A DNA stretch of 64,000 nt, taken from an uncultured Sphingobacterium sp. (GTDB taxonomy: Bacteria; Bacteroidota; Bacteroidia; SpSt-205). The position numbers and the translations under genes were made by a program. The notes under the pieces were generated by a model. It saw only the letters and a list, made by a program, of their open reading frames with translations, was not told the origin of the DNA and did not search any database. This document shows, piece after piece, positions 10,671-53,753 of this stretch. The DNA is taken from assembly GCA_964489015.1 (NCBI GenBank), contig CAZAXD010000005.1, positions 13,521 to 77,520 on the forward strand, given 5' to 3'. Each line of letters begins with the position of its first letter. Position 1 is the first letter of the stretch.

Positions 10671-12971
10671 CTACCACGATATCGTCACGCCTAGCATCGG
10701 TAAGATTGGCAGCTGATTATAGCGGCGGGCGGTGATGCGGTCGATGTAAAAGACGTTAGGCCGGTTGTAGACATTCAAAATCGAGGCCTGAAGCTCGAGC
10801 AGAGCGCGCCCCGTCAAGGTTACGCGGTACTTTAGCAGGAGATCCAAGCGGTGGTAAGCCGGGAGGTGGGCGGCGTTGTAGTTGGGGCTCAGGAGGATAG
10901 CTAAAGTGCCTTGCATGGTAGGATAGGGCGCCTGGGAACCTTGCTGAAAGAAGAGCAGCTTCTCAAAAAAGCCCAAGGTCTGAGTAAAAGGGAGGCCTGT
11001 GCCTAGGGTCCAGCGCAGCGAGGCTTCCCAGCGGCGCTCACGGCCACGAGGCACGCTTAGCACAGGGCCCCAGCTGTGACTGGTGACGAAATTGACCGTG
11101 TGACGGCGATCCCATAGAGGGAAATACGTTTGCCGAAAGTCCGTTCGGCGGTTGTACTGATAGCTGTAGGTGGCATAAATGTTGGTTTGGGGGCTTTGGT
11201 AGCGGAGGGTAGCATCCGCGCCGTAGGCGTAGCCTATCTCGGTGATGAAAGCCGGATCCTCGGGAAAGAGTCGCTCTCGGTTGACGTTAGTGAGTTGAAA
11301 GAAGCGCTTATACCAGCCTTCTAGGCTTAGGAGGAGTGCAGATCCGAGTTGGTATTCCCCACCTATGAGGGCGTGGTAGGCTTCTTGGAGGGGGTGCTGC
11401 AACTGCTGGTTAGCTGCAAGCTCTGGCGCCGTGAGAAAGCCTTGAAAGAGAATAACAATATCCCGGTCAGACACCGCGGCGACCCAGTTTTGGACATAGC
11501 GACCCGCTGCGGCTTGCAAGCTCCAGCGATCGGCGTTGTATTTGGCTCTTAAACGCGGCTCGATTGAGAAATAGCCGTAAGTATTGTAAAAGTGAAGCCG
11601 GAGGCTAGGCTCGATGAGGGCTTTTGTGCGGAAGGAAGGGTTGCCTTCCTCATCGAGGCTTTCTCGGCGAAAGACTTTCAGATAGCGAAAATAGCCGGCG
11701 CCTTCGGTATTGCTCTGGCGCTGCTGGGTGATGAAACCCAGGGCATTCGTGAAGAGAAAGTCCGTACTGAAGCCCCGTACTTCAATGCCATAGGCTAGCT
11801 CATTGGCCCCATAGAGGTACGAAAACGTAAAGCCGCCGTTGAAGCCGCCGATCTCGCTGTAACGAGGCCGTACTTCTTGCGGCACGGAAAAGGAGTTTTG
11901 GAAGCGGGAATAAGCAATGCTGCCCGTGATACGCACCCGGGTCCCTTGTGGAAGATTCGTAAAAGCTCCACCCACCCCCCACTGCTGCCAAGTATTGAGC
12001 CCCTGGGCGCCAAGGTCGACCCGATCGGTCTGCCGAAAGCCAAAAAGATTAAGCTGATCAGGCCCCCGGCCGAAAGTGATCTTGCCGTAAACATCCTGAA
12101 ATTGAAACGGCAGGGAGTCCTTGACATAGGGGTATAGGCGTGGGGTGCTTTGCTGGATATAACCCTGGCGCGCGCTCAGGATCCAGGAGCTATTGCGTAC
12201 GAAAGGGTTCGGTCCCTCTAATAGAGCCTGGCCTACAAAAGGGGTTACATACGCGCGCCCGCTAAATCGGTCAAAATTGCCGGGACGGGTGCGAATATCC
12301 ATAACCGAGGAGAGGCGGCCACCGTATCCGGCGCCGAAGCCTGCTGAGTAGAGATTGACCTGCCGAATGATATCGGTCTCAAACACGCTAAAAAGAGATA
12401 GTGTGTGAAAGGGGCTGTAAATGATAGCCCCGTCGAGGAGGGTAAGGTTTTGGATCGGAGTGCCGCCCCGAATATAAAGCTGCCCACCTTGGTCTCCCGT
12501 AAAGACCACCCCCGGCAAAACCTGCAAGTACTGAGCGATGTCAGGCACGCCGAAGCTCGGAAGCAGATACACCTGCCGAGGAGCAATCGGCGTCACGGCA
12601 ATGGTAACCCGAGATGGATCAATGCGGGCTGGGGCTAAGGCCTCGGTGATCTCAACGGATTGCAGTTCTATAGCCCGGGAAGCGGCTTGCAGTTTGAGGG
12701 TGATGACAGGACGACGACCATCTAGTACGACCTCTTGCCGAATCGTGTCTATGCCTATAGCACTGACCTGGAGCGTATAAGTCCCCGGCTTGATGTTATC
12801 AAGCGAAAAGAGGCCTTCGGCGTTTGTTAAGGTTCCCTTCCGTATCGGTAATAGCAAAACGGTTCCCCCTACGACCGGCTCCCCGTCTTCATCTAAAACT
12901 GAACCGCGGATGGTTACCTGTGCCCATCCGGCCAGAAGCCAAGCCGCCAACACGACTACAGACTTTCGCAT
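10671..12971 (-). CDS. TonB-dependent outer-membrane receptor (CarbopepD_reg + plug + barrel)
   Basis: The start is set at the ATG at 12971 (MRKSVVVLAAWLLAGWAQV signal peptide). A carboxypeptidase-regulatory-like domain is present (VTIRGSVLDEDGEPVVGGTVLL). Plug region and barrel are present. The barrel ends in an aromatic residue (...TISW). 766 aa. Confidence 0.8.
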   Translation of the reverse strand: MRKSVVVLAAWLLAGWAQVTIRGSVLDEDGEPVVGGTVLLLPIRKGTLTNAEGLFSLDNIKPGTYTLQVSAIGIDTIRQEVVLDGRRPVITLKLQAASRAIELQSVEITEALAPARIDPSRVTIAVTPIAPRQVYLLPSFGVPDIAQYLQVLPGVVFTGDQGGQLYIRGGTPIQNLTLLDGAIIYSPFHTLSLFSVFETDIIRQVNLYSAGFGAGYGGRLSSVMDIRTRPGNFDRFSGRAYVTPFVGQALLEGPNPFVRNSSWILSARQGYIQQSTPRLYPYVKDSLPFQFQDVYGKITFGRGPDQLNLFGFRQTDRVDLGAQGLNTWQQWGVGGAFTNLPQGTRVRITGSIAYSRFQNSFSVPQEVRPRYSEIGGFNGGFTFSYLYGANELAYGIEVRGFSTDFLFTNALGFITQQRQSNTEGAGYFRYLKVFRRESLDEEGNPSFRTKALIEPSLRLHFYNTYGYFSIEPRLRAKYNADRWSLQAAAGRYVQNWVAAVSDRDIVILFQGFLTAPELAANQQLQHPLQEAYHALIGGEYQLGSALLLSLEGWYKRFFQLTNVNRERLFPEDPAFITEIGYAYGADATLRYQSPQTNIYATYSYQYNRRTDFRQTYFPLWDRRHTVNFVTSHSWGPVLSVPRGRERRWEASLRWTLGTGLPFTQTLGFFEKLLFFQQGSQAPYPTMQGTLAILLSPNYNAAHLPAYHRLDLLLKYRVTLTGRALLELQASILNVYNRPNVFYIDRITARRYNQLPILPMLGVTISW

Positions 12972-17259: not shown

Positions 17260-19611
17260 CTACTGGAAGGAGAAATTGTACGTGATGGCCGGTACCCAAC
17301 GGAAAAGGTAAAGGTTATAAGCCCGCTGAAGGTTGGGGTTATTCTCGTCTTGCCGGAGGCGAAGCGCCCACATATTCCGACGGCCGTACACATTGTATAG
17401 TGAGAAGTTCCAGCTAGAAGTCCAACGGCGTCCCTCTTTTTTAGGCGCGGTCCAGGTGATCGAGATATCAACCCGATGATAATCGGGCATGCGGCGGCTA
17501 TTGCGGTCGTTGTAAACGGCTACCGTCTGGCCATCATACTCGTACTTGGCTACGGGAATGGTAATAGGGCGTCCTGTGGCGTAGATACCCGTGAGGCCAA
17601 TATCCCACTGGGAGGAGAGCGGATACTGTAAAACGAGCGTAGCACTGTGTGGACGGTCTACGTAGTTGGGAAAGGGATTGGCTGCAATTTGCGGGATATA
17701 ACGAAAGCTCCGGCTATACGTATAACTAAGCCAGCCGGTGAGCTTGCCGGTGCGCTTCTGGATCATCCACTCCGAACCATAAGCCCAGCCACGGCCTTGG
17801 ACGAGGTCCCGTTCTAAGAGAGGATTCAAGAAGATATCTGCGCCGGAGCGAAAATCTAGAAGGTTTTCCATCCAGCGGTAAAAGAGCTCCCAGCTTATAT
17901 CCCAAGCGTGATTTTTCCATCGGGGTATGCCCTGCAGTGCTAAGGCGACTTGGTAACCATCTTGGCGCCGGACATTCCGAGTGGTGGGCCACCAGATGTC
18001 CGTAGGCAAACCCACGGGAGAAAATGTAGCCACGTGCAGAAACTGCTGTATGCGGCCAAAGGCAGCCTTGAGCGCCCAAGCGTCAGATAGGCCGTAACGC
18101 ACGCTCAGCCGTGGCTCAAGTCCCCCGCTGAACGTCGCCGGTTCCCAGTTGCCATAGCGAAGGGTATCTTGCACCTCGCGGTTGGGAGAGAAGGTATACA
18201 GGTTGGCTGGCCCGAATAACCCAAACCCCGCATAACGGAGACCGCCTTCTACTAGCCACCGAACTGAAGCGCGCCAGCTTGCTTGCAAGTACAGGCTGCC
18301 TTCTAAGCCGCGTAGGGTCGGCACGCTGTAGGGCCGCACATTGGATGAGTCGGAAGTCGGCTCCAACCGTCCAGGTAAGAAGCGGTGATGCGTGAGGCCC
18401 GCTCCCCACCGCAGGCGTATTTTTTCGGACATAAAGTAGTCCATGTCCGTACGCCAGCTTAGATCCTCGATCCCGGCGCCGTATTTGGCCTGGTTATTGC
18501 CCTGCTCGACGAGAAAAGCGTAGTCGTATTTCGCATAGGCTAATACCGTATTCGCAAAGAGACGCTGCGAAAGGATCCAGTTCCATCGGAGCGTCGTCGT
18601 CGCATTTCCCCAGTTGAAGTCTAAAAAGTCGCCACTCTTAAAGGCGTCCCGGCCCAAGTAACCCGATACGAAAAGACGATGCTTGTCTGATACGTTGAGA
18701 TTGATCTTGGCTGTGAGGTCGTAAAAGTAAAGGGCCGAGCTTCGTAGCCCGGGGTCCCGAGCCAGTAGCAGAAACAAATCAGCATAGCTACGGCGGGCCG
18801 TAATGAGGACGCCTGCCCGATCTTTCAAAAGCGGCCCTTCTAGACATAGTCGGGAGGAAATGAGACCGATTCCACCGCTGGCCCGCCAAGAAGGCGCACT
18901 GCCTTCGCGCAGCCGCACGTCTAGCGCACTAGAAAGGCGCCCCCCATATTCTGGAGGCATGTAGCCCTTATACAGTCGCGCATCTTGGAGAGCGTCTGCG
19001 TTGAAAGCAGAGAAGATTCCCCCAATATGGCCGGGATTGTAAACGATCGCCTCGTCGAGCAAAACTAGATTTTGGTCAAAGCTACCCCCTCGCACGAAAA
19101 AGCTGCTGCTGCCATCACCTGCGGTCGTGACGCCTGGCAAAAAGCTAAGAGATCGTAGTACATCGACCTCTCCAAAAAAAGCAGGAAGCTTACGTAGCTG
19201 CTGAACCTCTAAGCGGTTTTCGCTCATGGCCCCTGTCTCAAAGCGGCGCTGTTCATAGGTTTCTACGATCTCGACGGTGCCGAGCATCACCCCTTCCTCT
19301 GAGAGGGCAAAGTCATGCTGGAGGTTTTTATTTAGGGTGAGGCGTAGGGTATCGGATTGGTACCCTACAAAAGCCGCCACTACGGTGTAGGTACCGGCGG
19401 GCAGCTTGATAGCGTAGTAACCGTAAGCATTGGTAAGGGTACCTGTGCCGCGCTCAACGATAAGTACACGAGCTCCCGCTAGCGCCTCGCGATTGGCGGC
19501 GTCGCGTATGTACCCGCTGAGCGTGTAACTCGGCGTTTGGGCTTGAGCTATCAGTAAAAAGGCAATTAGGCCCAACCGGGGCCCTAGCATGGAAATCGCG
19601 GCGTTAGGCAT
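17260..19611 (-). CDS. TonB-dependent outer-membrane receptor (CarbopepD_reg + plug + barrel)
   Basis: The start is at the ATG at 19611 (MPNAAISMLGPRLGLIAFLLIAQAQ). The N-terminal CarbopepD_reg-like domain is present (YTLSGYIRDAANREALAGARVLIVERGTGTLTNAYGYYAIKLPAGTY). Plug region and barrel are present. 783 aa. Confidence 0.8.
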   Translation of the reverse strand: MPNAAISMLGPRLGLIAFLLIAQAQTPSYTLSGYIRDAANREALAGARVLIVERGTGTLTNAYGYYAIKLPAGTYTVVAAFVGYQSDTLRLTLNKNLQHDFALSEEGVMLGTVEIVETYEQRRFETGAMSENRLEVQQLRKLPAFFGEVDVLRSLSFLPGVTTAGDGSSSFFVRGGSFDQNLVLLDEAIVYNPGHIGGIFSAFNADALQDARLYKGYMPPEYGGRLSSALDVRLREGSAPSWRASGGIGLISSRLCLEGPLLKDRAGVLITARRSYADLFLLLARDPGLRSSALYFYDLTAKINLNVSDKHRLFVSGYLGRDAFKSGDFLDFNWGNATTTLRWNWILSQRLFANTVLAYAKYDYAFLVEQGNNQAKYGAGIEDLSWRTDMDYFMSEKIRLRWGAGLTHHRFLPGRLEPTSDSSNVRPYSVPTLRGLEGSLYLQASWRASVRWLVEGGLRYAGFGLFGPANLYTFSPNREVQDTLRYGNWEPATFSGGLEPRLSVRYGLSDAWALKAAFGRIQQFLHVATFSPVGLPTDIWWPTTRNVRRQDGYQVALALQGIPRWKNHAWDISWELFYRWMENLLDFRSGADIFLNPLLERDLVQGRGWAYGSEWMIQKRTGKLTGWLSYTYSRSFRYIPQIAANPFPNYVDRPHSATLVLQYPLSSQWDIGLTGIYATGRPITIPVAKYEYDGQTVAVYNDRNSRRMPDYHRVDISITWTAPKKEGRRWTSSWNFSLYNVYGRRNMWALRLRQDENNPNLQRAYNLYLFRWVPAITYNFSFQ

Positions 19612-20167: not shown

Positions 20168-22372
20168 ATGCTCCGCGTTCTCTGGGCACTTCTGGGGTTA
20201 GTTTGGGCCCAGGGGCAAATAGAGTTGGTAGGACTTATCCGAGCAGCGGAGGAGGCTGCCCCTCATGAGGTTCCAGGCCTCGTTCAGAGAATGCTGCCTC
20301 TTGCTCGAGCGGCTTGTGCTAGCCGCCCTCAGGATACCCTGTGTCTAAAATATGCCCCACAGGTTCTCGACTTGTGGGCTTATGCGCTCTTTTTTGAGGG
20401 AAAGCTCGATTCAGCTCTCCTGCTAAGTGACTCCGCCTACAAGCTCTTAGAGCGGACGGGTTACATCCGAGAAGCCGCTAGCGTTTTAGGCAATGTTGCT
20501 TATTATCACCATCAAAAGGGGCAAATTGTGTCTGCTATCGAGGCCAACTACAAAGTCCTCGAGCTGGCAAAGACCCTGGATGACACGAGGCTACTGTTTT
20601 ATACCTCCAATAACTTAGCTGCTATCTTTCAGGAGATAGGCATAGAAGACAGCGCGACGCGCTTTTACTTGAAGGCGTTGGACTATGGGGAAAAGCTCGG
20701 CGCTAAAGACCTGGTGGCCACTGTACTGAATAACTTAGCGAAGTTTTACTACGATCAGGGTCTATGCCAAAGCGCGCTGAGTTATGCCAAGCGGGCGCTA
20801 GCCCTTCGTATGGAGAGTGGTGACACGGCGGGGGCCGCTATCACCTACGCCAACCTAGGCGCCTATTATCAGGAGCTAGGCCGAGTAGATTCTGCGAAGG
20901 CTGCTTTACAAGCCGCATTATACTGGTCTCGGCGCTCTAATTACAAGAACGCACAAGCGCTGGCCCTGATCAATCTAAGTCGGCTTTATGCGGACGCAGG
21001 CCTTTGGGATTCTGCCCGGACTTGTCTAGATCAGCTTCTCGAGTTTCGAAAAAATGCTTCAGAATCCGAACGATTTCGTGCCTATCTGGCCATGCTAAGC
21101 TTTTACTATCGCCAGTCAGAGGCTAAGCCCACTCTGCGGCGTACACTCTCTCAGCAGGCCCTTCATTGGCGCACGCAAGCGCTGCCCCTCTTGCCACATG
21201 TCAAGGAAGTAGATCTCGTACGGAACTTTTATTCTGCAACCTATCGGATCTTTGCCAACCTTGGCGATACGGTTAGGGCTTTTCGGGATTACATGATCTA
21301 CATTGCGCTTTCCGATAGCCTGCTTTCTAAAGAATCTAGACGTTCTGCCATCGAGTCTCGTTACCAGTATGAATGGCAGCAGCGCGAGCGCAGCTTACTA
21401 GCCCAGCAGATTCAGTTAGAGGAGCGACGAAAGCGCCAGCTTGTCTGGCTGGGGGTTATGGGTATCCTGCTTTTGGTGGTGGGACTAGGGGCTTTCTGGT
21501 TTTATCGGCTTTATCGTCAAATGCAGTTGCAGCGGGATGTTATTGCAGAAAGCAGTGCTCGTCTGCAAGAGGCGCATGCTGTGATCAAGGCACAGCATGA
21601 CGAGCTGCGCCAAAGCTTACGCTATGCGCAGCGCATTCAGCGAGCCCTTCTCCCCGATCCGATGCGCATGCAGCAGCTGCCCTTTACTTGCCGAATATGG
21701 TTTCAGCCGCGGGGCGAGGTAGGAGGGGACTTTTACTGGCTACGTCGGATAGGAGAAGGCGACCGCTACCTTATAGCCATAGGCGATTGTACCGGTCATG
21801 GCGTGCCTGGCGGGTTTATGACCATGATGCTGATAGCACTTCTAGAAACGGCTCTAGAACAAGAAGCCATTGATCTATCGGGGGCAGCGGCTTTTATCAG
21901 TCATCGTTTGCGCGAGCACCTGCATGCCGATAAGCACGAGGGGGTTCAGGATGGGGCTGAGCTCGTTTTAATAGAACTAGATCTACGCTCGGCCAAGATG
22001 CGCTACATCAACGCTGGTGGGAGTATGCGGGGCTGGTGGGTCAGCCCAGCGTGTTTAGAGGAGATTCGTCCTACAGGGCCTGGCCTCGGCTATAATCCAC
22101 TCGGACGCCCTATGGCTTGGACCGAGTGCCCAGTCGACATATCCGCCGGGGGACGTCTATACCTCTTTTCGGATGGCTATCGCGACCAGCTCAGCCCAGC
22201 AGGACGAAAGTTTCCATGGAAACACCTTCAAAGGGATTTGCCTTCGTTCCAGCGGGAACCTATTGTTTCTGTCCAAGACCAGCTAATTACTCGATGGGAG
22301 CAGCACCGGGGCGGTACGGCCCAGGTCGATGATGTAACTGTGTGCCTTTTAGAGCTACCGCCGCTCAGCTAG
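20168..22372 (+). CDS. TPR-repeat sensor protein with transmembrane helix and C-terminal PP2C/SpoIIE-type phosphatase domain
   Basis: The signal peptide is MLRVLWALLGLVWAQGQ. About 350 aa of TPR-like repeats follow. There is one TM helix (LVWLGVMGILLLVVGLGAFWF) and a coiled coil. The SpoIIE/PP2C motifs are GGDFYW...IAIGDCTGHGVPGG and, at the end, DDVTV. Confidence 0.75.
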   Translation: MLRVLWALLGLVWAQGQIELVGLIRAAEEAAPHEVPGLVQRMLPLARAACASRPQDTLCLKYAPQVLDLWAYALFFEGKLDSALLLSDSAYKLLERTGYIREAASVLGNVAYYHHQKGQIVSAIEANYKVLELAKTLDDTRLLFYTSNNLAAIFQEIGIEDSATRFYLKALDYGEKLGAKDLVATVLNNLAKFYYDQGLCQSALSYAKRALALRMESGDTAGAAITYANLGAYYQELGRVDSAKAALQAALYWSRRSNYKNAQALALINLSRLYADAGLWDSARTCLDQLLEFRKNASESERFRAYLAMLSFYYRQSEAKPTLRRTLSQQALHWRTQALPLLPHVKEVDLVRNFYSATYRIFANLGDTVRAFRDYMIYIALSDSLLSKESRRSAIESRYQYEWQQRERSLLAQQIQLEERRKRQLVWLGVMGILLLVVGLGAFWFYRLYRQMQLQRDVIAESSARLQEAHAVIKAQHDELRQSLRYAQRIQRALLPDPMRMQQLPFTCRIWFQPRGEVGGDFYWLRRIGEGDRYLIAIGDCTGHGVPGGFMTMMLIALLETALEQEAIDLSGAAAFISHRLREHLHADKHEGVQDGAELVLIELDLRSAKMRYINAGGSMRGWWVSPACLEEIRPTGPGLGYNPLGRPMAWTECPVDISAGGRLYLFSDGYRDQLSPAGRKFPWKHLQRDLPSFQREPIVSVQDQLITRWEQHRGGTAQVDDVTVCLLELPPLS

Positions 22373-26976: not shown

Positions 26977-29900
26977 ATGCGCTGGTGGATCGTGGGATGG
27001 ATAGGCGCTATGTGGGCTCAGAGCTTCTGTGTAGCGGTGGCCCCTCAGCAAAAAGAACTGGCGCGGGTCCTGCGTCAAAATCGACTCGCTGCGCCGGTCC
27101 GTCAGGGACCCTTATGGAAAGGTCTTTCGCGAGTAACTCCATTAGTAGCTGATACGAGTTTGACAGACCTGAGCCACTGGTTTGTGCTCTCGTTTCAGGG
27201 AGAGGACAGCGCTGCGGTGGTGCAGCGGTTACTACAAAGCGGATACTTCTGGGTGGTGGAGCCCAATCACCGCCGCCGATTGTGTGCAGACCTGTATGGG
27301 TGGCATCATGCAATCATGGGTACGGCGCAAGCCTGGACCCGCACGATGGGACACGCGAACGTTCCGATCGCTATCATCGACACCGGGCTAGATACTGCTT
27401 TAGGGGCCTTTACAGGACAGTACTGGGTCAATGCCCCAGAGGATCTTAACGGCAATGGTCGCTTGGATTCTGCAGACCTCAATGGGCTCGATGACGACGG
27501 TAACGGCTGGATCGATGATGTGATCGGGTATGACTTTACGGACCAGGCTCGGGGTATTGCTGCGGGAGATGCTTGGACACCCGACCCGATCCCTGTAGAT
27601 GAGAATGGGCATGGCACCGCTGTAACGAGCTTGATCGCTGCGCGATCGGATAGAGGGCCGATAAGCGGCTTAGCGCCAGGTTGTCGGATTCTGGTGATAC
27701 GGGCTTTTAGTGCAGACGGCTACGGGGAGGATGATGATATCGCGCGAGGTGTACTTTATGCAGTAGAGCGGGGAGTTCGGGTCATCAACTGCAGCTTTGG
27801 CGATGAAGCCCCTTCGCAAATGATGCACGCTGTGATCCGGTATGCGGCTGCGCGTGGCGTGGTGGTGGTAGCCTCTTCTGGCAATGGCAGTGGAGGACGT
27901 CCCCACTTTCCCTCAAGCTTTCCCGAGGTAATTAGTGTGGGTGCCGCAAGCTATGACCCTGAGAGTGGTCGGCCCTTTTTGTGGCCCTTCTCGGGGTATA
28001 GCCGGGTAGACTGGATAGCACCTGGTGACCGAATTCCCGTTCTCCTACCAGGGGCCCAGGTGGCTAGCCTAAGTGGGACGAGCCTCAGTGCGGCGCTCAC
28101 AAGTGCGGCGATAGCTCTGTTACTAAGCCGCTTTCCCGGGCTAACCCCGGAAGCCGTCCGCGCTACACTAGCTGCTTCTGCTCAAGACTTAGGCGGGCCG
28201 GGCTGGGATGTGTATACAGGCGCAGGCCTGCTTAGGCTTTTGCCCGGCTTAGACCAGCCACACGAAGGGCTCATTCAGTGGCTCGAACCGGCGCCTCATA
28301 CAACGGCGCCGCTCGCGCCTGTGGCGCTTCGACTCCGGATTTATCATAGCCTCCTGGTAGGTTGGGAAGTGGCCCAAGCTAGAAGCTTGCAGGGGCCCTG
28401 GCTCGTGATCGCTAGAGGTCATCGCCCCGCTTGGGATACAAGCTTTACATGGCAACCGTCTAGCGAGGGTCAGTGGTATTTGCGCCTCTCTGCTATGCTT
28501 CGGAATGGTCAAGCGCAAGCGAGCATCCTTCCCTTAGAGGCTGTGCAAGGAGGTTTGCGCTTTGAGCAGGCTGAGATAGGCCCTGCATGGCGGGAGGGTT
28601 TCCAGGGCCGTGTGGCTAACTACCTACTCAATGCGTCCGCTCCAGTCTGTGTGGAGAGCGCCTCTGACCGATTATGTGCCGATAAAATCGATACCATTGG
28701 CGCGATCTTTTTAGGCATCAGGCCTTCCACGGCCTGGACCTTTCAAGCGCTTGGGGGCTTGGATACACCCCAGGTCATGCGCAGCACGCCGCCCCCCGCC
28801 TATGAAGCGCTAGCCTTTGATGCCTACGCCATTCGAAATATATCGGCGCCTGCTGGTTTTTACTGGCCTTATCCGCTCCCAGACTGGGGTGGGGATGGGC
28901 TGCCCGATTACGCTGCTGCGGTTTATGACGAGCAGGGGTATTTTCAGCATGTCGTTTATATAGAACGACGAGGGGCGGTGTATGAAGCGTACGACAGTCT
29001 GACGGCGAGGCCTATGCTTATCCGGGACGTGAGAGACTGGGATGCCGATGGTCAGCCAGACTTGCTAGGCGTGTGGGTAGACAGCTTCTTTGTGTGTAGC
29101 GGTAGTCCGCCCAAAGAGATCGTATGGCGAGGGGCCGGTCGGGCTGCCCGCTTAGACGCCAACCAGACCATCTGGCGACGCACGGAAAACGGGCACTACG
29201 AGCGCGTCTCTCAGCAGGGACAGGTCCTGGCGCGCTTGCTGGATACCACTACCTGGCAAGGCTCTACCACGATCCCTCGGCTGCTGCTGCTGCCTGCTGC
29301 TTCAGAGACTCTCTGGGTTTTTGGCAATTATTCAGGTTGGATTTTTGCCTATCGGGGGTCCTCGCTGGTAGAAGCTTATCCTACTAGCCTATGGGGGGTA
29401 GGCTCCTATCTCGAGGCTGTCGAGCTAAACGGCGATAATCAGAGCGAATTAGTTTATCTGGGGCAGCGGCCTGGGGCCAAACTGTGGGAGCTAGGCATCT
29501 TAGGCGGGCGACCTTGGCAGCACATAGCTCAAAGCGTATTTTGGTACGAGGGTGATTATGCGCCTAGACTCTTTCTGCGCGCCGATACGGTCCTGCTGTG
29601 GTTGCCTCCGTACGTGTACGTTGGCCAGCTTAGTATGAGTGGTATCCGCTGGTGGGCTTATGGACCGGCGGCTTGGGGCGCCTTTGGGCCACTAAGAGAA
29701 GGTTGGCTTCTTGGTCTCGACTCAGTCCCTTGTGTGGTAGAATATACCCCGCCTGTCCTCCTAGCGCCGGCCTGGATTCGGGTAGGAGCGTTAGGCGTGA
29801 ATGCCGTAGACCTTAGTTGGTCTCCAGTCGGCAGTGCTACAGGCTATGAGCTCTGGCGTATAACTGGTAATCAAGCCACTTTGGTTTATGCAGGTGCTCA

Positions 29901-36383: not shown

Positions 36384-36391
36384 AAGACAGC

Positions 36392-37219
36392 TTAGAGCGC
36401 CTGCACTAACTCTGTGAATATCCGGGTTAGTTTAGGTTCGGCTTCGTTGGCGACGTGGATGATTTCTTCTAGGGACACGGGCTTGAGGTTGTCTGGGTCT
36501 CCGATGTCTGTCACGATAGACATGGCAAAGACACGCATACCCATGTGATTGGCCACAATGCATTCGGGGATAGTAGACATGCCCACGACATCAGCACCAA
36601 TGATGCGTAAATACCGGTACTCGGCTCGGGTTTCTAGATTGGGACCGGCTACAGCGGCGTATACCCCTTCCTGGAGGGAAAATCCTAAGCACTGGGCAAT
36701 CGATCTTGCTTTTTCGATAAGCTGAGCGTCATAAGGCTGACTCATATCAGGGAAGCGGGGGCCAAGCTGATCGAGGTTGATACCGCGAAGGGGGTTTTCC
36801 GGTAAGAGGTTGATATGATCCCGAATGATCATGAGATCACCCAGCTTGTAGGTGAGGTTGACAGCACCGGCGGCATTGGAAAGCAGGAGGGTGTGGACCC
36901 CTAGGAGCTTCATGATGCGAATCGGATAGGTAATCTGATACATGGTATAGCCCTCATAATAATGGAAGCGTCCCTGCATGGCGACGACCTTCTTGCCAGC
37001 CAGCCGCCCAAAAATTAGCCGCCCAAAGTGGCTCTCTACGGTACTAATCGGAAAATGCGGAATAAAGTTATACGCTAGCTGAACTTCCTTCTCGATACTT
37101 TCAGCCAAGCGCCCTAGGCCTGTGCCTAAGACAATTCCGACTTCTACCTCATCCTGGTAGTAGCGTCGAATATATTCGAGCGTTTCTTGAAAGTGTTTAT
37201 AAGCTTCTGGCGTGCCCAT
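36392..37219 (-). CDS. Purine nucleoside phosphorylase (PNP-I/PunA type, inosine-guanosine)
   Basis: The 275-aa protein has the phosphate-binding N-terminus (VGIVLGTGLGRLAESIE) and PunA-type purine-site residues (MSTIPECIVANHMGMRVFAMSIVTD). Confidence 0.8.
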   Translation of the reverse strand: MGTPEAYKHFQETLEYIRRYYQDEVEVGIVLGTGLGRLAESIEKEVQLAYNFIPHFPISTVESHFGRLIFGRLAGKKVVAMQGRFHYYEGYTMYQITYPIRIMKLLGVHTLLLSNAAGAVNLTYKLGDLMIIRDHINLLPENPLRGINLDQLGPRFPDMSQPYDAQLIEKARSIAQCLGFSLQEGVYAAVAGPNLETRAEYRYLRIIGADVVGMSTIPECIVANHMGMRVFAMSIVTDIGDPDNLKPVSLEEIIHVANEAEPKLTRIFTELVQAL

Positions 37220-39312: not shown

Positions 39313-40275
39313 ATGTGGTGCCTCCTCATAGTGGGGCTGGTCTGGGCCCAAGTCCTGCCAAATCTTGGCGGGCAGCGGGTGGGCATCTCAGCGCTAACCT
39401 TTCTTAAGATCGACCCCTCCCCTAGGTCGGTGGGAATGGCCGGTGCGTTTGTACCCATGGGGTCTGACCCCTTCGCCGCCTATTGGAATCCCGGGGCTCT
39501 CACGCGACTCCATGGAGGTTTGGGGGCCTCTCACGCTTTCTGGATCGCCGGCCTGGATTACACCTACGCGACCTTTTCCTGGCCCTGGCGTGCGTCACAC
39601 CGCTTAGGTGGTCAGGTGCAGTTTCTGACGAGCGGCCCTATTGAACGGCGTACCGAGTGGCAATCGCAGGGCACCGGCGAATACTTCTCCGCCACTTACT
39701 GGGCTATCGGCCCGACCTATGCTTATGAGTTTAGCGACCGCTTTTCCGCCGGTGGGAGCTTCAAGCTTGTGCGTGAGGCTTTGGATCTTTTTCAGGCGAC
39801 GACCTGGGTCGTGGATATGGGGCTTTTGTACTGGACTGACGTACGTGATTTTCGATTTGGGGTGCTGGTGCAAAATTTTGGGCCTAATTCCCGCCTGCGC
39901 ACACGTGATCAGCGTTATAGAGGTCTTGGTTTAGGGACCTACCCTCCGCCGACACTTTTTGCCTTGGGAGCCGCCATTTGCCTCTGGCATCGTGAAAAAC
40001 ATCGCTTGGAGGCAGCCCTGCAGCTCAATCATCCTAATGACAATGCGGAAAATCTTCGTTTCGGGCTGGAGTACACGTATGCTTCTATTTTATTTTTACG
40101 GGCCGGACAGAAGGTGGGGGTTCGTGAGCAGAGCGTGCCCACAGCTGGGATAGGCATTCAGCGGGGCTGGGGCAGGGGACGCCTGCGTATAGATTATGCA
40201 GCCGAATGGATAGGTCCTCTGGGCCTCAAACATCGCATAGGTGTCGTATGGCAAAGAGAAGCCTCTTCTTCATAG
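39313..40275 (+). CDS. PorV/PorQ-family T9SS-associated outer-membrane beta-barrel protein (FadL-like)
   Basis: The signal peptide is MWCLLIVGLVWAQ. The family-typical N-terminal motif is present (ISALTFLKIDPSPRSVGMAGAFVPMGSDPFAAYWNPGAL). The protein is 320 aa, closer to PorQ than PorV in size. The assignment is from memory of the family signature. Confidence 0.5.
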   Translation: MWCLLIVGLVWAQVLPNLGGQRVGISALTFLKIDPSPRSVGMAGAFVPMGSDPFAAYWNPGALTRLHGGLGASHAFWIAGLDYTYATFSWPWRASHRLGGQVQFLTSGPIERRTEWQSQGTGEYFSATYWAIGPTYAYEFSDRFSAGGSFKLVREALDLFQATTWVVDMGLLYWTDVRDFRFGVLVQNFGPNSRLRTRDQRYRGLGLGTYPPPTLFALGAAICLWHREKHRLEAALQLNHPNDNAENLRFGLEYTYASILFLRAGQKVGVREQSVPTAGIGIQRGWGRGRLRIDYAAEWIGPLGLKHRIGVVWQREASSS

Positions 40276-42731: not shown

Positions 42732-42741
42732 GCGTCTAGCG

Positions 42742-48791: not shown

Positions 48792-48877
48792 AAAGGTAGG
48801 AGCGGCCGTTCGTTGCCCTAAGGAATTAACGTCTATTTTATCCTGCTCAAGGCTACTATTTTTGCTGAGAGGCCTGC

Positions 48878-48908
48878 ATAAAGCGCCCCCGTAAGGGGGC
48901 GCTTTGTT
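48878..48908 (+). terminator. Rho-independent terminator-like hairpin
   Basis: The sequence is agcgccccc-gtaa-gggggcgct, a 9-bp GC-rich stem, followed by ttgtttgggg. It lies between the pseudogene and the intact paralog. Confidence 0.5.
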
Positions 48909-48945
48909 TGGGGCTTGGTGCGATGATTTGTTGTATCTTAGTAAA

Positions 48946-50868
48946 GTGATACGTTTCCTCTTTGTAATAATAGCCTGGGCCCTGGCTCAGCCGCCCAGGG
49001 GCATCTCCAAGCGGGCGTACGAACTGTATAATCAGGCTATTCGCTCTATGCAGGCGCGGCGCATGGCAGAAGCGCGCAGCCTTTTAGAACAAGCTCTGCG
49101 GCTCGAGCCGCAGTACGAAGAGGCCTGGGTGCTATTAGGGCGGGTTGCGCTCTCGGAACGTGACCCGATAGGTCTTCTGGAGGCAGGTCAGGGGCTTTTG
49201 AGATTAGGCAAAGGTTCCCCAGAGGCTAAGCCCTGGGGATGGTACTTCCAAGGGAAGGCTTATCTCATCCAAGAGCGTTATGCAGATGCGGCAGCGATTT
49301 TAGATAGTACTGTTCGGCAGGGAGCCGGTATACTTCCCAAGCGGGTTTATGAGGAGGCGGCTCTGCTTCAGGTGCAGAGCCGACACGCAGCGCAGTTTCG
49401 GGCGAATCCCGTTCCGCTGCGCCTTGAAAATTTAGGTCCTGCGGTGAATAGCCCTTATGATGAGTATCTGCCGAGCCTAACAGCGGATGGTCGGCGATTG
49501 TATTTTACCTCTCGCCGCCCTAAGTCGGGGGTGCCAGTCAATCCGTTGCAGGGGCCCGATGAGGACCTGTATTGGTCTGAGCGGGAAGGAACGGACTGGC
49601 TAGCCTGCAAGCCGCTGGGCTCCCCTATCAATACCCCCCAAAACGAGGGGGCGGCCTTTTTTTCAGCTGATGGCCAATGGGCTTTTTTGACCCTTTGCGA
49701 CCGAAAGGACGGATTCGGTTCCTGTGATCTGTACTTCTCTCGTCTAGAGGGTGAAGAGTGGTTACCCCCTCAAAACTTAGGGCCTCTCGTGAATAGTCCT
49801 GAATGGGAGTCCCATCCGAGCCTAACACATGATCGCAGGCGCTTGTACTTTGCCTCCGGGCGAAAAGGGGGAGCAGGGGGGGCGGATATTTGGTACACGG
49901 AGTGGCGCGAGGGGGCCTGGCAGCCGCCTGTCAATCTCGGTCCTCCTATCAATACGCCCGGCAATGAGTATTCCCCCATGATCGCAGCCGATGGGCGCAC
50001 CCTTTACTTTGCCTCCGATTATCACCCAGGGCTAGGGGGCATGGATTTATTTGTAGCTTACCTTACGGATACAGGCTGGACCCAGCCACGAAACTTAGGT
50101 TATCCGCTCAATACGGCTGGAGACGAACAGACATTGTGTGTGGATGCAGCGGGGCAGATGGCGTATGTTGCGCTACAGCGGGCGGAGGGCCTAGGGCGAC
50201 TAGATATTTATCGCTTTCCACTCTGGCCGGAGGCTCGGCCGCAAGAGGTGGCTACTTATGTACGAGGTCTTGTTCGGGATAAAGCCTCGGCTAAGCCTTT
50301 AGAGGCCCGCATTTTCATCGTGGATCTGGCGCGGCGAGATACGGTGCGCAGCCTCTCCAGCAACAGGGTCTCTGGTGAATTTCTGACGTCTCTACCGCTG
50401 GGGCGGCGCTATGCGTTGTATGCTCAGGCGCCCGGTTATTTATTTTATAGTGGCCACTTTGACTTGACTCAGCTAGACACGGCCTATGAACTGGTGGTAG
50501 TTTTAGAGCGTCCCGTGCGCGGTAGTCAGCTCATGCTACAAAATATCTTTTTTGACTTTGATAAGGCGACCCTCAAGCCAGAGTCCGAGGTCGAGCTGCG
50601 GGAGGTCGTTAGATTGCTCTTAGCCTATCCTCGGGCTCGGGTAGAGATCCAGGGGCATACGGATAGTGTGGGCAGTGCCGCTTATAATCTGCAGCTCTCT
50701 CAGCGACGCGCGGAAGCCGTGCGCGACTTTCTGATTTCCCAAGGCATAGCGGCGGATCGTTTGACAGCGCGGGGTTACGGTCACACTCGTCCCATTGCCG
50801 ATAATCGCACAGAGGAAGGCCGGGCTCGCAACCGCCGTACCGAACTCGTTTTCTTAGAAGTACCTTAG
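48946..50868 (+). CDS. TPR - PD40 (WD40-like/TolB-type beta-propeller) - OmpA C-terminal domain protein
   Basis: GTG start at VIRFLFVIIAWALAQP. N-terminal TPR region. Repeated PD40 blades (INTPGNEYSPMIAADGRTLYFASD). C-terminal OmpA-like peptidoglycan-binding domain (LQNIFFDFDKATLKPES...GHTDSVGSAAYNLQLSQRRAEAVRDFL...GYG...NRRTE). Confidence 0.75.
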   Translation: MIRFLFVIIAWALAQPPRGISKRAYELYNQAIRSMQARRMAEARSLLEQALRLEPQYEEAWVLLGRVALSERDPIGLLEAGQGLLRLGKGSPEAKPWGWYFQGKAYLIQERYADAAAILDSTVRQGAGILPKRVYEEAALLQVQSRHAAQFRANPVPLRLENLGPAVNSPYDEYLPSLTADGRRLYFTSRRPKSGVPVNPLQGPDEDLYWSEREGTDWLACKPLGSPINTPQNEGAAFFSADGQWAFLTLCDRKDGFGSCDLYFSRLEGEEWLPPQNLGPLVNSPEWESHPSLTHDRRRLYFASGRKGGAGGADIWYTEWREGAWQPPVNLGPPINTPGNEYSPMIAADGRTLYFASDYHPGLGGMDLFVAYLTDTGWTQPRNLGYPLNTAGDEQTLCVDAAGQMAYVALQRAEGLGRLDIYRFPLWPEARPQEVATYVRGLVRDKASAKPLEARIFIVDLARRDTVRSLSSNRVSGEFLTSLPLGRRYALYAQAPGYLFYSGHFDLTQLDTAYELVVVLERPVRGSQLMLQNIFFDFDKATLKPESEVELREVVRLLLAYPRARVEIQGHTDSVGSAAYNLQLSQRRAEAVRDFLISQGIAADRLTARGYGHTRPIADNRTEEGRARNRRTELVFLEVP

Positions 50869-51377: not shown

Positions 51378-51488
51378 AACGCTTTAAGTAGATATGGCGC
51401 GTCCCTACCTATGCAAATATAGGCTTTCTTATCTGATCGATCGCGAGCGTTCAAGGTATAGTGAACGATTTTCCCTTATCTTTGACTT

Positions 51489-53753
51489 ATGCGGTGGATA
51501 TTAGTGGCCGGCTGGCTTTGGGCGCAAGGGGGGGTGGCGATTGGACAATGGGGGGCCTATTACTGCCCATTGTATGTGAAGCAGGTGGGGTATACGCCAG
51601 GGTACATTTGGGGATTGTCTTCGGAGGGCGTTTTTGTGGTAGAGGAGCAGACGAGGTCTTATCAAGAGCTTAGTAAAGCTCGCGGCCTTTATGCGAATGT
51701 GCCTAATGCCCTATATGCGGATCCGTACAGTGGGCAGATTTTTCTTGGTTATGGAGATGGCATGATTGAATACGGCGCCTCACCCCAATCCCTGGCGCGC
51801 CTCAGTGTCATAGCGTCCAATTCCTTTTTTAGCGCGAAGCGCATATGGGACTTTGCAGCTTTGAGAGACTCGCTTGCGATAGCGACAGATTTTGGAATTG
51901 TGATCTGGGATAAACGAAGGCGCCAGGTGGTTGCAAGTATCACGCAGTTCCCGGCTAAAGGTTTTGGTACGGCAGTTAGACGGGTGCTATGGGTTGAGGG
52001 TGCGTTGTGGGCCATAGCTGAAGAGGGGTTGTATCGATTGCCTTTAGGCGGCGCCTGGCTTGCTAGCTGGCAGAAAGTCAGTGGAAGTGGATATCGTCTG
52101 CCGGATACCCTATATGCGAGTTGGGCCTATACGCCTCACGGACTGTTGGTGGGGCTAAGGGACTCCTTATACCGTTGGAATGGGCAAGACTGGGAGCCGT
52201 TTAGGCCATCGGAATTCACATTTCGTGGCAGGGTACTGGCGTTATTTGGCAATGAAGAGGTCTGGGCTATTTCAACGGAGGCAGCGGCTGACACGTTTGC
52301 GTATTACATTACTAGGGATGGTCGTCTTCGGCGCTTGTGGAATCCTAGTGCTCCGACGCTCTGGTGCAGTTCGGATTTGCGTCTTTTGGTGCTAGGATCC
52401 GGTTGGGGAGCGGGCGCCACGATTGCTATAGGTGATGAGGTGGTAGGACTGGAGCAGTATGCGCGCTTACGCGATGCGCAAACTACACATGTGCATCCAA
52501 CTGCTAAGGGCCTCTGGTTTGTTCATGGTGGCTCTGGCTTTTGGGGAGTAAATTATGGGAATCACCTCACCTTTTATCCGCATGGTGCAATGGCAGGCCT
52601 TTTGGTCGCGCCTAATTACCTGTCTCTCGGTATAAATGCTTCTGGCTTTTTTACTATAGAGTCAGATGGAGAGGGCGTATGGTTAGGCGGACTGGGGGGG
52701 ATCGTGTATGTGTCTGAGTCTGATTCTAGGCAGTTGCGATACTTTGGATCTTCTAATGTACCGGTATGGGACGGTCTTTTTCCTGATAGCTTAGGCCGAC
52801 CTACGTATTTCTGTTTTTCTGCACTTCATCGGGATATGCGCGGCTACCTCTGGGTGGGGAAGCTCTGGGGGAATCGCAACCTAAGCCTGTACACGCCGCA
52901 GGGTCAATGGTTAGTCCTCCCTTATATGGACGGCAGCGTCTTACAAATCGTAGAGGATCGCCGAGGGTATAAATGGATTCTATACCGTGGAGGCCAGATT
53001 CGGGTTATCGATGACCGGGGTGATCCCGCCAACCCTGCGGGGTTTAGAACCGTTTTGCTAAATGCGGGGAGCGGTGCCTTAGCGGGTCTACCCGATCAAG
53101 AGATTCGCTGTATAGCTGCGGATCGAAATAATGCTATCTGGCTCGGGACCGAGCGCGGGGTGGCAGTTTTGTATGGAGATCCGTTTAGTGCGACCCTCAG
53201 CTTATCTCTACCGGTCGTTGATAACCGATACCTTTTGGAGGAGGAGGTTATCACGACCATTGCTGTCGATGGTCAAAATCGCAAATGGTTTGGCACCGTG
53301 GGCAGTGGCGTGTATGTCATCAGCCCCGAAGGAAACCGTCAGCTCGCTACTTTCAACGTGGAAAATAGCCCTCTTCCCGATAACTATGTCTATCAGATCA
53401 AACCATGGGATCTGACGGGGGAAGTTTTTCTAGTCACGGCGCAAGGCGTAGTGAGTTATCGAGATTGGGCCACCGAGCCGTCAGAGAGTCTGGATTCCCT
53501 TTACATATTCCCGAATCCGGTGGGACGAAATTTTGAGGGTCTAGTTGGGATTCGGGGGCTGTCAGAGGGCGCCACGGTACGGATCTTTACCGCAGATGGT
53601 CAGCTTATTCGTTATCTAATGGGATTTGGGGGCCAGGCCGTTTGGGATCTCAAGACCACGGATGGCCAGCGTGTCTCGCCGGGTATTTATCTGGTGGCTG
53701 CTCTGGATGCAGATGGACAGCGCAGTCGCATCGGGAAAATTGTTGTTTTCTAA
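51489..53753 (+). CDS. Secreted beta-propeller (two-component-regulator-propeller-like) protein with T9SS C-terminal sorting domain
   Basis: The signal peptide is MRWILVAGWLWAQG. About 650 aa are Trp/Gly-rich propeller-like repeats. The C-terminus is a T9SS CTD (ATVRIFTADGQLIRYL...SPGIYLVAALDADGQRSRIGKIVVF). Confidence 0.65.
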   Translation: MRWILVAGWLWAQGGVAIGQWGAYYCPLYVKQVGYTPGYIWGLSSEGVFVVEEQTRSYQELSKARGLYANVPNALYADPYSGQIFLGYGDGMIEYGASPQSLARLSVIASNSFFSAKRIWDFAALRDSLAIATDFGIVIWDKRRRQVVASITQFPAKGFGTAVRRVLWVEGALWAIAEEGLYRLPLGGAWLASWQKVSGSGYRLPDTLYASWAYTPHGLLVGLRDSLYRWNGQDWEPFRPSEFTFRGRVLALFGNEEVWAISTEAAADTFAYYITRDGRLRRLWNPSAPTLWCSSDLRLLVLGSGWGAGATIAIGDEVVGLEQYARLRDAQTTHVHPTAKGLWFVHGGSGFWGVNYGNHLTFYPHGAMAGLLVAPNYLSLGINASGFFTIESDGEGVWLGGLGGIVYVSESDSRQLRYFGSSNVPVWDGLFPDSLGRPTYFCFSALHRDMRGYLWVGKLWGNRNLSLYTPQGQWLVLPYMDGSVLQIVEDRRGYKWILYRGGQIRVIDDRGDPANPAGFRTVLLNAGSGALAGLPDQEIRCIAADRNNAIWLGTERGVAVLYGDPFSATLSLSLPVVDNRYLLEEEVITTIAVDGQNRKWFGTVGSGVYVISPEGNRQLATFNVENSPLPDNYVYQIKPWDLTGEVFLVTAQGVVSYRDWATEPSESLDSLYIFPNPVGRNFEGLVGIRGLSEGATVRIFTADGQLIRYLMGFGGQAVWDLKTTDGQRVSPGIYLVAALDADGQRSRIGKIVVF

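What the first reader, a model, noticed from the sequence alone, without database searches (positions are those of the whole stretch)
12900..51540. Highly stereotyped Trp-rich signal peptides ending in ...(L/G)(V/L)WAQ in at least nine unrelated exported proteins
The following N-termini occur in the window: MRWWIVGWIGAMWAQS (S8 protease); MRVIWVVGLVWAQV; MKRFWCLLGVLAWAQP (WD40-caspase); MWCLLIVGLVWAQ (PorV/Q-like); MRWILVAGWLWAQG (propeller protein); MLRVLWALLGLVWAQGQ (TPR-PP2C); ...LVWAQV (34701-36383); ...VLAAWLLAGWAQV (TonB receptor); ...IIAWALAQP (PD40-OmpA). All share a very short n-region, one or two Trp, and an invariant WAQ. An ordinary A-x-A signal peptidase site would not enforce the conserved Trp or such near-identical h-regions. 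This suggests a lineage-specific export or sorting determinant, or a strong compositional constraint. Several of these proteins also carry T9SS CTDs.
Basis: seen in the sequence. Interest (0 to 1): 0.5.

Follow-up and report, generated by a model that had tools for sequence, protein, structure and literature searches.

The report
Short Trp-rich Q-rule signal peptides
The repeated "...WAQ" N-termini are real signal peptides of a hot-spring Bacteroidota lineage: the A|Q cleavage site is the already known Bacteroidetes "Q-rule", while the very short length (12-17 residues) and the tryptophan at position -2 are a clade-specific habit for which I found no published description.

Summary
Eight unrelated exported proteins begin with a 12-17 residue hydrophobic, Trp-rich peptide ending W-A-Q, and a ninth ends A-L-A-Q. 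In four of them an in-frame stop lies 1-2 codons upstream of the ATG, so the shortness is not a start-codon artefact. All 12 SPase-I-type signal peptides in the window expose Gln at +1. That is the published Bacteroidetes Q-rule, in which signal peptidase I cleaves A|Q and Gln is cyclised to pyroglutamate. It is not a new export determinant.

What is lineage-specific is the Trp at -2 and the compaction.
- PorV/PorQ orthologues of a hot-spring Bacteroidia clade have W(-2) in 12/15, against 1/101 in other Bacteroidota. Median signal-peptide length is 14 against 19.5 residues, and Trp makes up 14% against 0.8% of signal-peptide residues.
- PorZ orthologues (49-100% identity) have W(-2) in 11/14.
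- Across 20 non-orthologous clade families, 13 have W(-2).
- In 1.3 Mb from other, mostly Bacteroidota, genomes, 0/80 candidate sites have W(-2).

The clade proteome is about twice as Trp-rich as these other genomes and looks thermophilic, but that does not explain an 18-fold, position-specific enrichment. W(-2) swaps with Y/F/L among orthologues and shows no link to protein destination, which argues against a sorting signal. Verdict: a new variant of a known kind, of modest interest.

The parts
12921..12971 (-). Signal peptide MRKSVVVLAAWLLAGWA|Q (17 aa) of a TonB-dependent receptor (CarboxypepD_reg + Plug)
   Evidence: The start at 12971 is supported by the divergent rhodanese lipoprotein gene 13066-13479.
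20168..20209 (+). Signal peptide MLRVLWALLGLVWA|Q (14 aa) of a TPR-SpoIIE/PP2C protein
   Evidence: A TAG stop lies 2 codons upstream of the ATG.
26977..27018 (+). Signal peptide MRWWIVGWIGAMWA|Q (14 aa) of a 1281-aa subtilase S8 with a borderline T9SS CTD
   Evidence: A TAG stop lies 2 codons upstream of the ATG.
31496..31531 (+). Signal peptide MRVIWVVGLVWA|Q (12 aa) of a 281-aa protein with no family match
   Evidence: A TAA stop lies 2 codons upstream of the ATG.
32338..32379 (+). Signal peptide MKRFWCLLGVLAWA|Q (14 aa) of a WD40-caspase (Peptidase_C14) protein
36369..36419 (-). Signal peptide (I/M)HRVSAGALSCLVLVWA|Q of a Porin_10 protein. There is no ATG/GTG/TTG at a usable distance. The inferred start is ATT at 36419-36417, overlapping the 3' end of the PNP gene.
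   Evidence: The same ATT-initiated frame gives signal-peptide-like sequences in L081 and L083; L082 has a TTG. The start is an inference.
39313..39348 (+). Signal peptide MWCLLIVGLVWA|Q (12 aa, no Lys/Arg) of a PorV/PorQ-family protein. The mature N-terminus QVLPNLGGQR corresponds to the Q[LIFV][LFI]PxLG start conserved across Bacteroidota.
51489..51524 (+). Signal peptide MRWILVAGWLWA|Q (12 aa) of PorZ (NCBIfam equivalog, type A CTD)
   Evidence: A TGA stop lies 2 codons upstream of the ATG.
48946..48987 (+). Signal peptide (GTG)MIRFLFVIIAWALA|Q (14 aa) of the PorE-like TPR-PD40-OmpA protein. W is at -4 here. Orthologues have LWA|Q, GWA|Q, GYA|Q or ALA|Q.
   Evidence: The choice of start (GTG 48946 rather than TTG 48931 or 48904) is an inference from L087/L088.
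8212..8277 (+). Q-rule signal peptide without Trp: MRKVCVNRFSLLSLGLLMSIYA|Q (22 aa; 24 aa if translation starts at the ATG at 8206)
19540..19590 (-). Q-rule signal peptide without Trp: MLGPRLGLIAFLLIAQA|Q (or ...LIA|QAQ) of a second TonB-dependent receptor
30857..30907 (+). Q-rule signal peptide without Trp: MLARIVLMVGALSLGLA|Q (17 aa) of a protein of about 211 aa with no family match

Best explanation
These are ordinary Sec-dependent, signal-peptidase-I-cleaved signal peptides of a T9SS-bearing Bacteroidota genome. Cleavage falls between Ala(-1) and Gln(+1). The exposed Gln is then expected to be cyclised to pyroglutamate by a glutaminyl cyclase, as in the Bacteroidetes Q-rule.

Within one clade of uncultured hot-spring Bacteroidia, the signal peptide has been compacted:
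- an n-region of 1-3 residues, with 0-2 positive charges;
- an h-region of about 8-10 residues;
- a c-region reduced to x-W-A.

Trp has largely replaced the Phe and other residues that related lineages use. It sits above all at -2, and often again 2-6 residues from the N-terminus.

Shown here: the motif, its position, its restriction to the clade, its conservation in orthologues, and its independence from protein family.

Inferred: cleavage at A|Q and pyroglutamate formation. Also inferred is the reason for Trp. The -2 side chain is not one of the two positions (-1 and -3) that the A-x-A rule constrains (textbook knowledge, not tested here). An interface-seeking Trp there, with a second near the N-terminus, would hold a very short h-region in register so that the scissile bond sits at the membrane surface where the peptidase acts.
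For: - **Signal-peptide anatomy and firm starts:**
- **Conservation begins exactly at Gln.** It starts at Q in PorV (QLLPNLGGQR in about 116 homologues), PorZ (QGGVAIGQWG) and PorE-like (QPPKGISK) proteins. The preceding segment varies in sequence and length.
- **Q-rule compliance:** 12/12 SPI-type signal peptides in the window have Q(+1) and A(-1). The published mean Q-value in Bacteroidetes is 71% (PMC5837995).
- **T9SS components in the window:** PorZ, PorV/PorQ and a PorE-like protein.
- **Clade restriction in the PorV family:** W(-2) in 12/15 clade members against 1/101 others (Fisher 8e-13). Median length is 14 against 19.5 aa (Mann-Whitney U test 1.6e-8). Trp is 14% against 0.8% of signal-peptide residues.
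- **PorZ orthologues:** W(-2) in 11/14, Y in 2, F in 1.
- **Non-orthologous families:** 13 of 20 in the clade have W(-2).
- **Other genomes:** 0/47 and 0/80 W(-2) in 1.3 Mb of other, mostly Bacteroidota, loci, where Phe is commonest at -2.
- **Protein-level selection:** synonymous codon variation and no shared DNA longer than 12 nt.
Against: No cleavage-site predictor (SignalP) or N-terminal proteomics was available, so cleavage at A|Q rests on anatomy and on analogy with the Q-rule literature.

No glutaminyl cyclase or signal peptidase gene of the clade was seen in the roughly 290 kb examined, so their presence is untested.

Signal-peptide detection in the comparison loci used my own heuristic, which requires Q after an uncharged hydrophobic stretch. 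Its counts are approximate.

The statistics treat related sequences as independent.

Some clade members (L090; P0006, P0010, P0130, P0132, P0133) use F, Y or S at -2, so the habit is strong but not universal.

The mechanistic reason for Trp is an inference only.
Confidence: 0.85

Rival explanations
1. W-A-Q is a lineage-specific sorting or recognition tag, for example for outer-membrane or T9SS targeting, or for a dedicated peptidase. On this view it is read by machinery other than the general Sec/SPase I pathway.
For: The motif is strikingly stereotyped and conserved in orthologues down to 49% identity. Several carriers are T9SS components or outer-membrane proteins.
Against: - Carriers span different predicted destinations: OM barrels, the PorZ T9SS component, a TPR-PP2C regulator-type protein, and a WD40-caspase.
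- Of two TonB-dependent receptors, one has WAQ and the other AQAQ.
- The PorE-like protein has ALAQ in the window but WAQ in L081 and L082.
- Orthologues interchange W with Y, F or L.
- In P. gingivalis the N-terminal Gln/pyroglutamate is not a generic sorting signal (PMC5837995 abstract).
Confidence: 0.05
2. Pure compositional drift. The clade's proteome is Trp-rich (thermoadaptation or mutational bias), and the signal peptides merely reflect it, with no selection on position.
For: Trp is 2.1-2.5% of ORF residues in the window and L081-L083, the four highest of 84 loci, against a median of 1.08%. The IVYWREL fraction is 0.43, against 0.39 in the other loci, which fits a thermophile. Internal TM-like segments are also 1.7x richer in Trp.
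Against: The enrichment in signal peptides is about 18-fold, not 2-fold. It peaks at one position (-2: 65% W in 20 independent families). It is kept in orthologues whose h-regions have otherwise diverged. Phe falls in clade signal peptides but not in the clade proteome.
Confidence: 0.08
3. Annotation artefact. The true starts lie upstream and the 'WAQ' segments are internal, or the segments are uncleaved N-terminal membrane anchors.
For: Some starts are ambiguous (TonB receptor, PorE-like, Porin_10).
Against: Three different stop codons lie 1-2 codons upstream of four of the ATGs. A 12-14 residue hydrophobic peptide is too short to span a bilayer. OM barrels such as PorV, Porin_10 and TonB-dependent receptors must be released from the inner membrane. 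Orthologues place the boundary at the same Gln.
Confidence: 0.02

Closest known systems
Bacteroidetes Q-rule signal peptides (Bochtler et al. 2018, PMC5837995; Szczesniak et al. 2023, PMC10653852)
   Same: A Bacteroidota genome with T9SS genes; SPI-type signal peptides ending small-x-Ala with Gln at +1 in all 12 cases; Q(+1) conserved across PorV homologues of the phylum.
   Different: Signal peptides here are about 6 residues shorter (median 14 against 19.5-20). They carry about half the positive charge and are 10-15% Trp, with W at -2 in about two thirds. The Q-rule paper contains no occurrence of 'tryptophan' or 'aromatic'. Pyroglutamate formation and the cyclase were not checked here.
Canonical Gram-negative Sec/SPase I signal peptides (n-h-c regions, -3/-1 'A-x-A' rule)
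   Same: A hydrophobic core; small or aliphatic residues at -3 (V/L/A/G/I); Ala at -1; a free choice of residue at -2.
   Different: The n- and c-regions are almost abolished. One signal peptide (PorV) has no Lys/Arg at all. Trp is normally one of the rarest signal-peptide residues (0.8% in non-clade PorV signal peptides).
Trp-flanked model transmembrane peptides (WALP-type; from my own knowledge, not tested)
   Same: A short hydrophobic stretch bracketed by Trp near both ends (for example MRW...LWA, MW...VWA), as expected for interfacial anchoring.
   Different: This is an analogy only. The peptides here are natural, cleaved and shorter than a bilayer-spanning helix. No biophysical evidence was obtained.

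Membership tests
Sec/SPase I (type I) signal peptide | N-terminal position, a hydrophobic h-region of at least 7 uncharged residues, and a downstream mature domain | tested here: met
   All have 8-13 uncharged hydrophobic residues directly after M(R/K).
Sec/SPase I (type I) signal peptide | Small or neutral residues at -1 and -3 (A-x-A rule) | tested here: met
   -1 is Ala in 12/12. -3 is V/A/G/I/M/L. Leu at -3 is also the commonest choice in non-clade PorV homologues (44/101).
Sec/SPase I (type I) signal peptide | Positively charged n-region | tested here: inconclusive
   0.8-1.25 Lys+Arg per signal peptide, against 1.57 in other Bacteroidota. The PorV signal peptide MWCLLIVGLVWA has none.
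Sec/SPase I (type I) signal peptide | Actual cleavage by signal peptidase I | not testable with these tools
   No SignalP or proteomics was available. Cleavage is inferred from the conservation boundary at Gln.
Bacteroidetes Q-rule substrates | The organism belongs to Bacteroidota | tested here: met
   PorZ equivalog, PorV/PorQ and PorE-like genes. The best bioB relatives are Cytophagales/Chitinophagales. Close homologues are named Bacteroidia MAGs.
Bacteroidetes Q-rule substrates | Gln immediately after the SPI site in most SPI substrates | tested here: met
   12/12 in the window. All of the about 116 PorV homologues have Q at the boundary.
Bacteroidetes Q-rule substrates | A glutaminyl cyclase encoded in the genome | not tested
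   The Pfam lists of the fetched clade loci show no Peptidase_M28 or Glu_cyclase_2 family, and most window genes were not scanned.
Bacteroidetes Q-rule substrates | N-terminal pyroglutamate on the mature proteins | not testable with these tools
   This needs mass spectrometry.
Lipoprotein (SPase II) signal peptide | A lipobox with Cys at +1 | tested here: not met
   No Cys follows the WAQ signal peptides. Separate lipoproteins exist at 7379, 13066, 19961 and 40248 (LSGC, VAC, LTGC).
Tat signal peptide | A twin-arginine S/T-R-R-x-F-L-K motif and a long n-region | tested here: not met
   No RR motif is present and the n-regions are 1-3 residues long.
T9SS cargo | A C-terminal sorting domain (TIGR04183 type A, or type B) | tested here: inconclusive
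   PorZ scores 23.5 bits (cut-off 23). S8 scores 20.2 bits, below the cut-off. No CTD was found in the other WAQ proteins. The motif is therefore not tied to a CTD.

The most novel reading that the evidence does not exclude
A whole clade of thermophilic Bacteroidia has re-engineered its general export signal. The result is a minimal, Trp-bracketed 12-14 residue peptide that needs little or no positive charge. On this reading W(-2) is a functional determinant that positions the A|Q bond for signal peptidase I (and perhaps the cyclase), and it has co-evolved with the clade's Sec/SPase machinery or its membrane at around 70 C. This would be a natural example of how short and how unconventional a working bacterial signal peptide can be.
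Probability: 0.3. Interest if true: 0.55.

Novelty: new variant of a known kind. Interest (0 to 1): 0.33.

Why it matters
The A|Q part is textbook for Bacteroidota and needs no new explanation.

The clade-specific part matters in three ways.

**Practical.** Signal peptides of 12-14 residues with GTG, TTG or even non-canonical starts are easily missed.
- PorV orthologues in public data are often called 283-288 aa long, without their signal peptide and mature N-terminus.
- Secretome and T9SS inventories of these hot-spring MAGs are therefore probably underestimates.

**Biological.** A natural set of minimal, Trp-rich, low-charge signal peptides could test how much n-, h- and c-region a Sec signal really needs. 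It could also test whether interfacial Trp can substitute for length and charge.

**Applied.** Such short signals from a thermophile could be useful secretion tags.

Tried and rejected
- **Exact look-ups of window proteins** (the 281-aa protein, bioB, P0001) found no contig on record. The rest of the source contig (106,965 bp, NCBI) could not be read.
It returned only distant relatives (64% identity or less) and no clade genomes. I used these loci as the outgroup sample instead.
- **The single metagenome-contig scan with MurF** gave one 28%-identity locus (L084) and was wasted. A true genome-wide logo was therefore not possible. It was approximated with nine clade loci from about eight assemblies (L081-L083 and L085-L091, about 184 kb excluding L088, which duplicates L087) plus the window.
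- **A copied signal-peptide cassette** was rejected. The longest shared DNA between signal-peptide-coding segments is 12 nt.
- **A DNA/RNA-level palindrome** (CTGGGCCCAG) was rejected. It appears only with the GCC codon, in 3 of 8 cases.
- **Stop-codon recoding** as a way to lengthen the signal peptides was rejected. TAG, TAA and TGA all occur upstream.
- **Literature searches** for Trp-rich or short signal peptides, or for aromatic P2 preferences, found nothing relevant.
- **The third homology search, structure prediction and RNA tools** were not used, because they would not bear on the question.
Full report
**Observation**

A six-frame search finds the tripeptide WAQ 14 times in the window.
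- Eight hits lie 10-16 residues from the beginning of long ORFs. The W codons are at 12926(-), 20204(+), 27013(+), 31526(+), 32374(+), 36374(-), 39343(+) and 51519(+).
- Two hits are internal to cytoplasmic proteins.
- Four are antisense or short-ORF readings. Three of these arise because TGGGCCCAG is nearly its own reverse complement.

The ninth (PD40-OmpA) ends A-W-A-L-A-Q, not WAQ.

With W, A and Q frequencies of 2.5%, 9% and 4.5%, about 0.07 WAQ are expected in the N-terminal dozen positions of about 55 proteins. Eight are seen (Poisson P about 8e-15).

The carriers are unrelated (Pfam/NCBIfam): a TonB-dependent receptor, a TPR-SpoIIE/PP2C protein, a 1281-aa subtilase, a 281-aa protein with no family match, a WD40-caspase, a Porin_10 protein, a PorV/PorQ-family protein, PorZ (equivalog, 279.9 bits against a cut-off of 260), and a PorE-like TPR-PD40-OmpA protein.

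**The starts are real**

In four genes an in-frame stop lies 1-2 codons upstream of the ATG: TAG for TPR-PP2C and S8, TAA for the 281-aa protein, and TGA for PorZ. These leaders cannot be longer than 12-14 residues.

The TonB-receptor start at 12971 (17-aa leader) is supported by a divergent rhodanese lipoprotein gene at 13066-13479. A longer ORF would overlap that gene.

The Ala codon is GCA, GCC, GCT or GCG, and the Gln codon is CAG or CAA. No two leader-coding segments share more than 12 nt. The conservation is therefore at protein level, and there is no duplicated cassette.

**Census of the window**

A generic scan for N-terminal hydrophobic segments gives 12 SPase-I-type leaders and four lipoproteins (7379, 13066, 19961, 40248).
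- All 12 SPI-type leaders have Ala at -1 and Gln at +1.
- Eight have Trp at -2. The others have SIYA|Q, AQA|Q, GLA|Q and ALA|Q.
- Median length is 14 residues.
- Trp makes up 10% of leader residues, and 7% even when position -2 is excluded.

**What the A|Q is**

The window encodes T9SS components (PorZ, PorV/PorQ, a PorE-like protein), and its closest bioB relatives are Cytophagales/Chitinophagales. The genome is therefore Bacteroidota.

[quoted passage not shown] This is the 'Q-rule'. The mean Q-value is 71% over 334 species (PMC5837995). The cyclase is essential in P. gingivalis, and pyroglutamate stabilises the exported proteins (PMC10653852).

The PorV/PorQ family shows the boundary directly. 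About 116 homologues from across the phylum begin their conserved part at the same Gln (Q-L-L-P-N-L-G-G-Q-R). What precedes it varies in length and sequence. The invariant 'AQ' is thus the known SPI/Q-rule site, not a new determinant.

**What is lineage-specific**

The PorV homologues split sharply.
- Fifteen sequences form the clade sample. Fourteen are at 68-100% identity, and one more distant sequence (P0017, 53% identity) shares the trait. Named members include KatS3mg026 and other hot-spring 'Bacteroidia bacterium' MAGs.
- These have leaders such as MWCLLIVGLVWA, MRWWWITGLAIGWA, MYGIVVVGWVWA and MRSFIIGITGILWA.
- The remaining 101 sequences (50% identity or less) have leaders such as MRKIALYFALAVLAGSTLQA.

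| PorV family | Clade | Other Bacteroidota |
|---|---|---|
| W at -2 | 12/15 | 1/101 (Fisher 8e-13) |
| Median leader length | 14 aa | 19.5 aa (Mann-Whitney U test 1.6e-8) |
| Trp share of leader residues | 14% | 0.8% |
| Phe share of leader residues | 4% | 7% |
| Lys+Arg per leader | 0.79 | 1.57 |

PorZ orthologues (14 sequences, 49-100% identity) repeat the result. Eleven have W at -2 (ten WAQ, one WLQ), two have YAQ and one has FSQ. Median length is 13 residues.

Nine clade loci from about eight assemblies (L081-L083 and L085-L091) add families that the window lacks:
- MRWLILWLVGNIWA|Q, on an amidohydrolase;
- MVLVWGLALLWA|Q;
- VVRLCLIPIYLWA|Q (GTG start);
- ...SLALVGFVWA|Q;
- ...GASLWV|Q.

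Over 20 non-orthologous families, 13 have W(-2) and 18 have A(-1).

In 1.32 Mb from 80 other, mostly Bacteroidota, loci my heuristic finds 47 (xAQ) or 80 (hydrophobic stretch followed by Q) candidate sites. None has W at -2, and Phe is the commonest residue there. Only 2/80 are stop-limited to 16 residues or fewer. These counts rest on a home-made detector and on related sequences, so the P-values are indicative only.

**Composition**

The clade is Trp-rich overall.
- Trp is 2.1-2.5% of ORF residues in the window and L081-L083. These are the four highest of 84 loci, against a median of 1.08%. The difference is not explained by G+C (r = 0.18).
- The IVYWREL fraction is 0.43, against 0.39 in the other loci. 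This corresponds to a nominal growth optimum near 69 C, which fits the hot-spring sources. The estimate is rough because raw ORFs were used.
- Internal transmembrane-like segments contain 2.7% Trp, against 1.6%.

A two-fold background cannot produce an 18-fold, position-specific enrichment. Phe drops in clade leaders but not in the clade proteome. Composition therefore contributes but does not explain the pattern.

**Mechanism (inferred)**

The leaders are Sec signals cleaved by SPase I at (V/L/G/A)-W-A|Q. The -1 and -3 residues satisfy the peptidase. The A-x-A rule leaves -2 unconstrained (textbook knowledge, not tested here), so any bulky residue is tolerated there.

In this clade the n- and c-regions have almost vanished. 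An interface-seeking Trp at -2, often with another Trp 2-6 residues from the N-terminus, would fix a very short h-region in register. That would place the scissile bond at the membrane surface. This last step is my inference and was not tested.

**Against a sorting tag**

- W(-2) shows no link to protein destination.
- One TonB-dependent receptor has it and the other does not.
- The PorE-like protein has ALAQ here but LWAQ or GWAQ in L081, L082 and L089.
- Orthologues swap W with Y, F or L.
- The Q-rule authors found that Gln/pyroglutamate is not a generic sorting signal.

**Novelty**

The A|Q site is already known. The Q-rule paper contains no occurrence of 'tryptophan' or 'aromatic', and two literature searches found nothing on Trp-rich or very short signal peptides.

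I therefore file the finding as a new variant of a known kind, of modest interest. The practical consequence is that gene callers and signal-peptide predictors probably under-call these proteins. Public PorV orthologues are often truncated to 283-288 aa. In L085 the called gene (156-1019) omits a GTG-initiated 12-aa leader that ends AWA|Q.

**Limits**

- No SignalP or proteomics was available.
- No whole genome of the clade could be read.
- Glutaminyl cyclase and LepB of the clade were not examined.
- One collection scan was wasted.

Noticed in passing
window 36369-36419 (-), with L081, L082, L083: The Porin_10 gene has a good signal peptide in frame but no ATG/GTG/TTG upstream of it. An ATT that overlaps the 3' end of the upstream purine-nucleoside-phosphorylase gene would give a 17-aa leader in the window. 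It would also give leader-like sequences of 17 aa in L083 and about 24 aa in L081. L082 has a TTG instead. This may be a conserved non-canonical start, or re-initiation after the PNP stop codon.
   Followed up: partly
window 59306-62191 (-): Two tandem PAS-SpoIIE/PP2C genes (59430-60686 and 60811-62067) sit behind identical 124-nt upstream regions. They are identical over their first 1075 nt, and all 79 differences fall in the last ~180 nt. A third, apparently split or truncated copy follows at 62192-63405. This points to recent duplication or gene conversion, or to an assembly artefact.
   Followed up: partly
window 23269-25762: A tyrosine recombinase (phage-integrase family, 23269-24192) lies near a Prim-Pol primase/polymerase gene (25010-25762). 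This may be a remnant of an integrated mobile element, located between the TPR-PP2C and S8 genes.
   Followed up: no
window 32338-34167 (+): A WD40 beta-propeller is fused to a caspase-like Peptidase_C14 domain and carries a cleavable signal peptide. This implies an exported caspase-family protease.
   Followed up: no
whole window; L081-L083: The proteome is unusually Trp-rich (2.1-2.5% against a median of 1.08% in 80 other loci). The IVYWREL fraction is 0.43, which suggests a growth optimum near 70 C and fits the hot-spring MAG relatives (KatS3mg026, D6750_, N3E49_ locus tags).
   Followed up: partly
L085 156-1019; proteins P0014-P0016, P0138-P0144: Public gene calls for PorV/PorQ orthologues of this clade are often truncated to 283-301 aa. 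They lose the short (often GTG-initiated) signal peptide and about 30 residues of conserved mature sequence.
   Followed up: partly
window 39313-53753: T9SS-related genes lie in a block whose order is conserved across several clade genomes: bioB, PorV/PorQ, NHL lipoprotein, M23 peptidase, SSB, TilS, polyphosphate kinase, QueE-like radical SAM, PorE-like OmpA, LigT, PorZ.
   Followed up: no
window 13066-13479 (+) and 19961-20164 (+): Two small lipoprotein genes are easily missed: a rhodanese-domain lipoprotein (...LLIWGGVAC) and a 67-aa ORF with an LTGC lipobox just upstream of the TPR-PP2C gene.
   Followed up: partly
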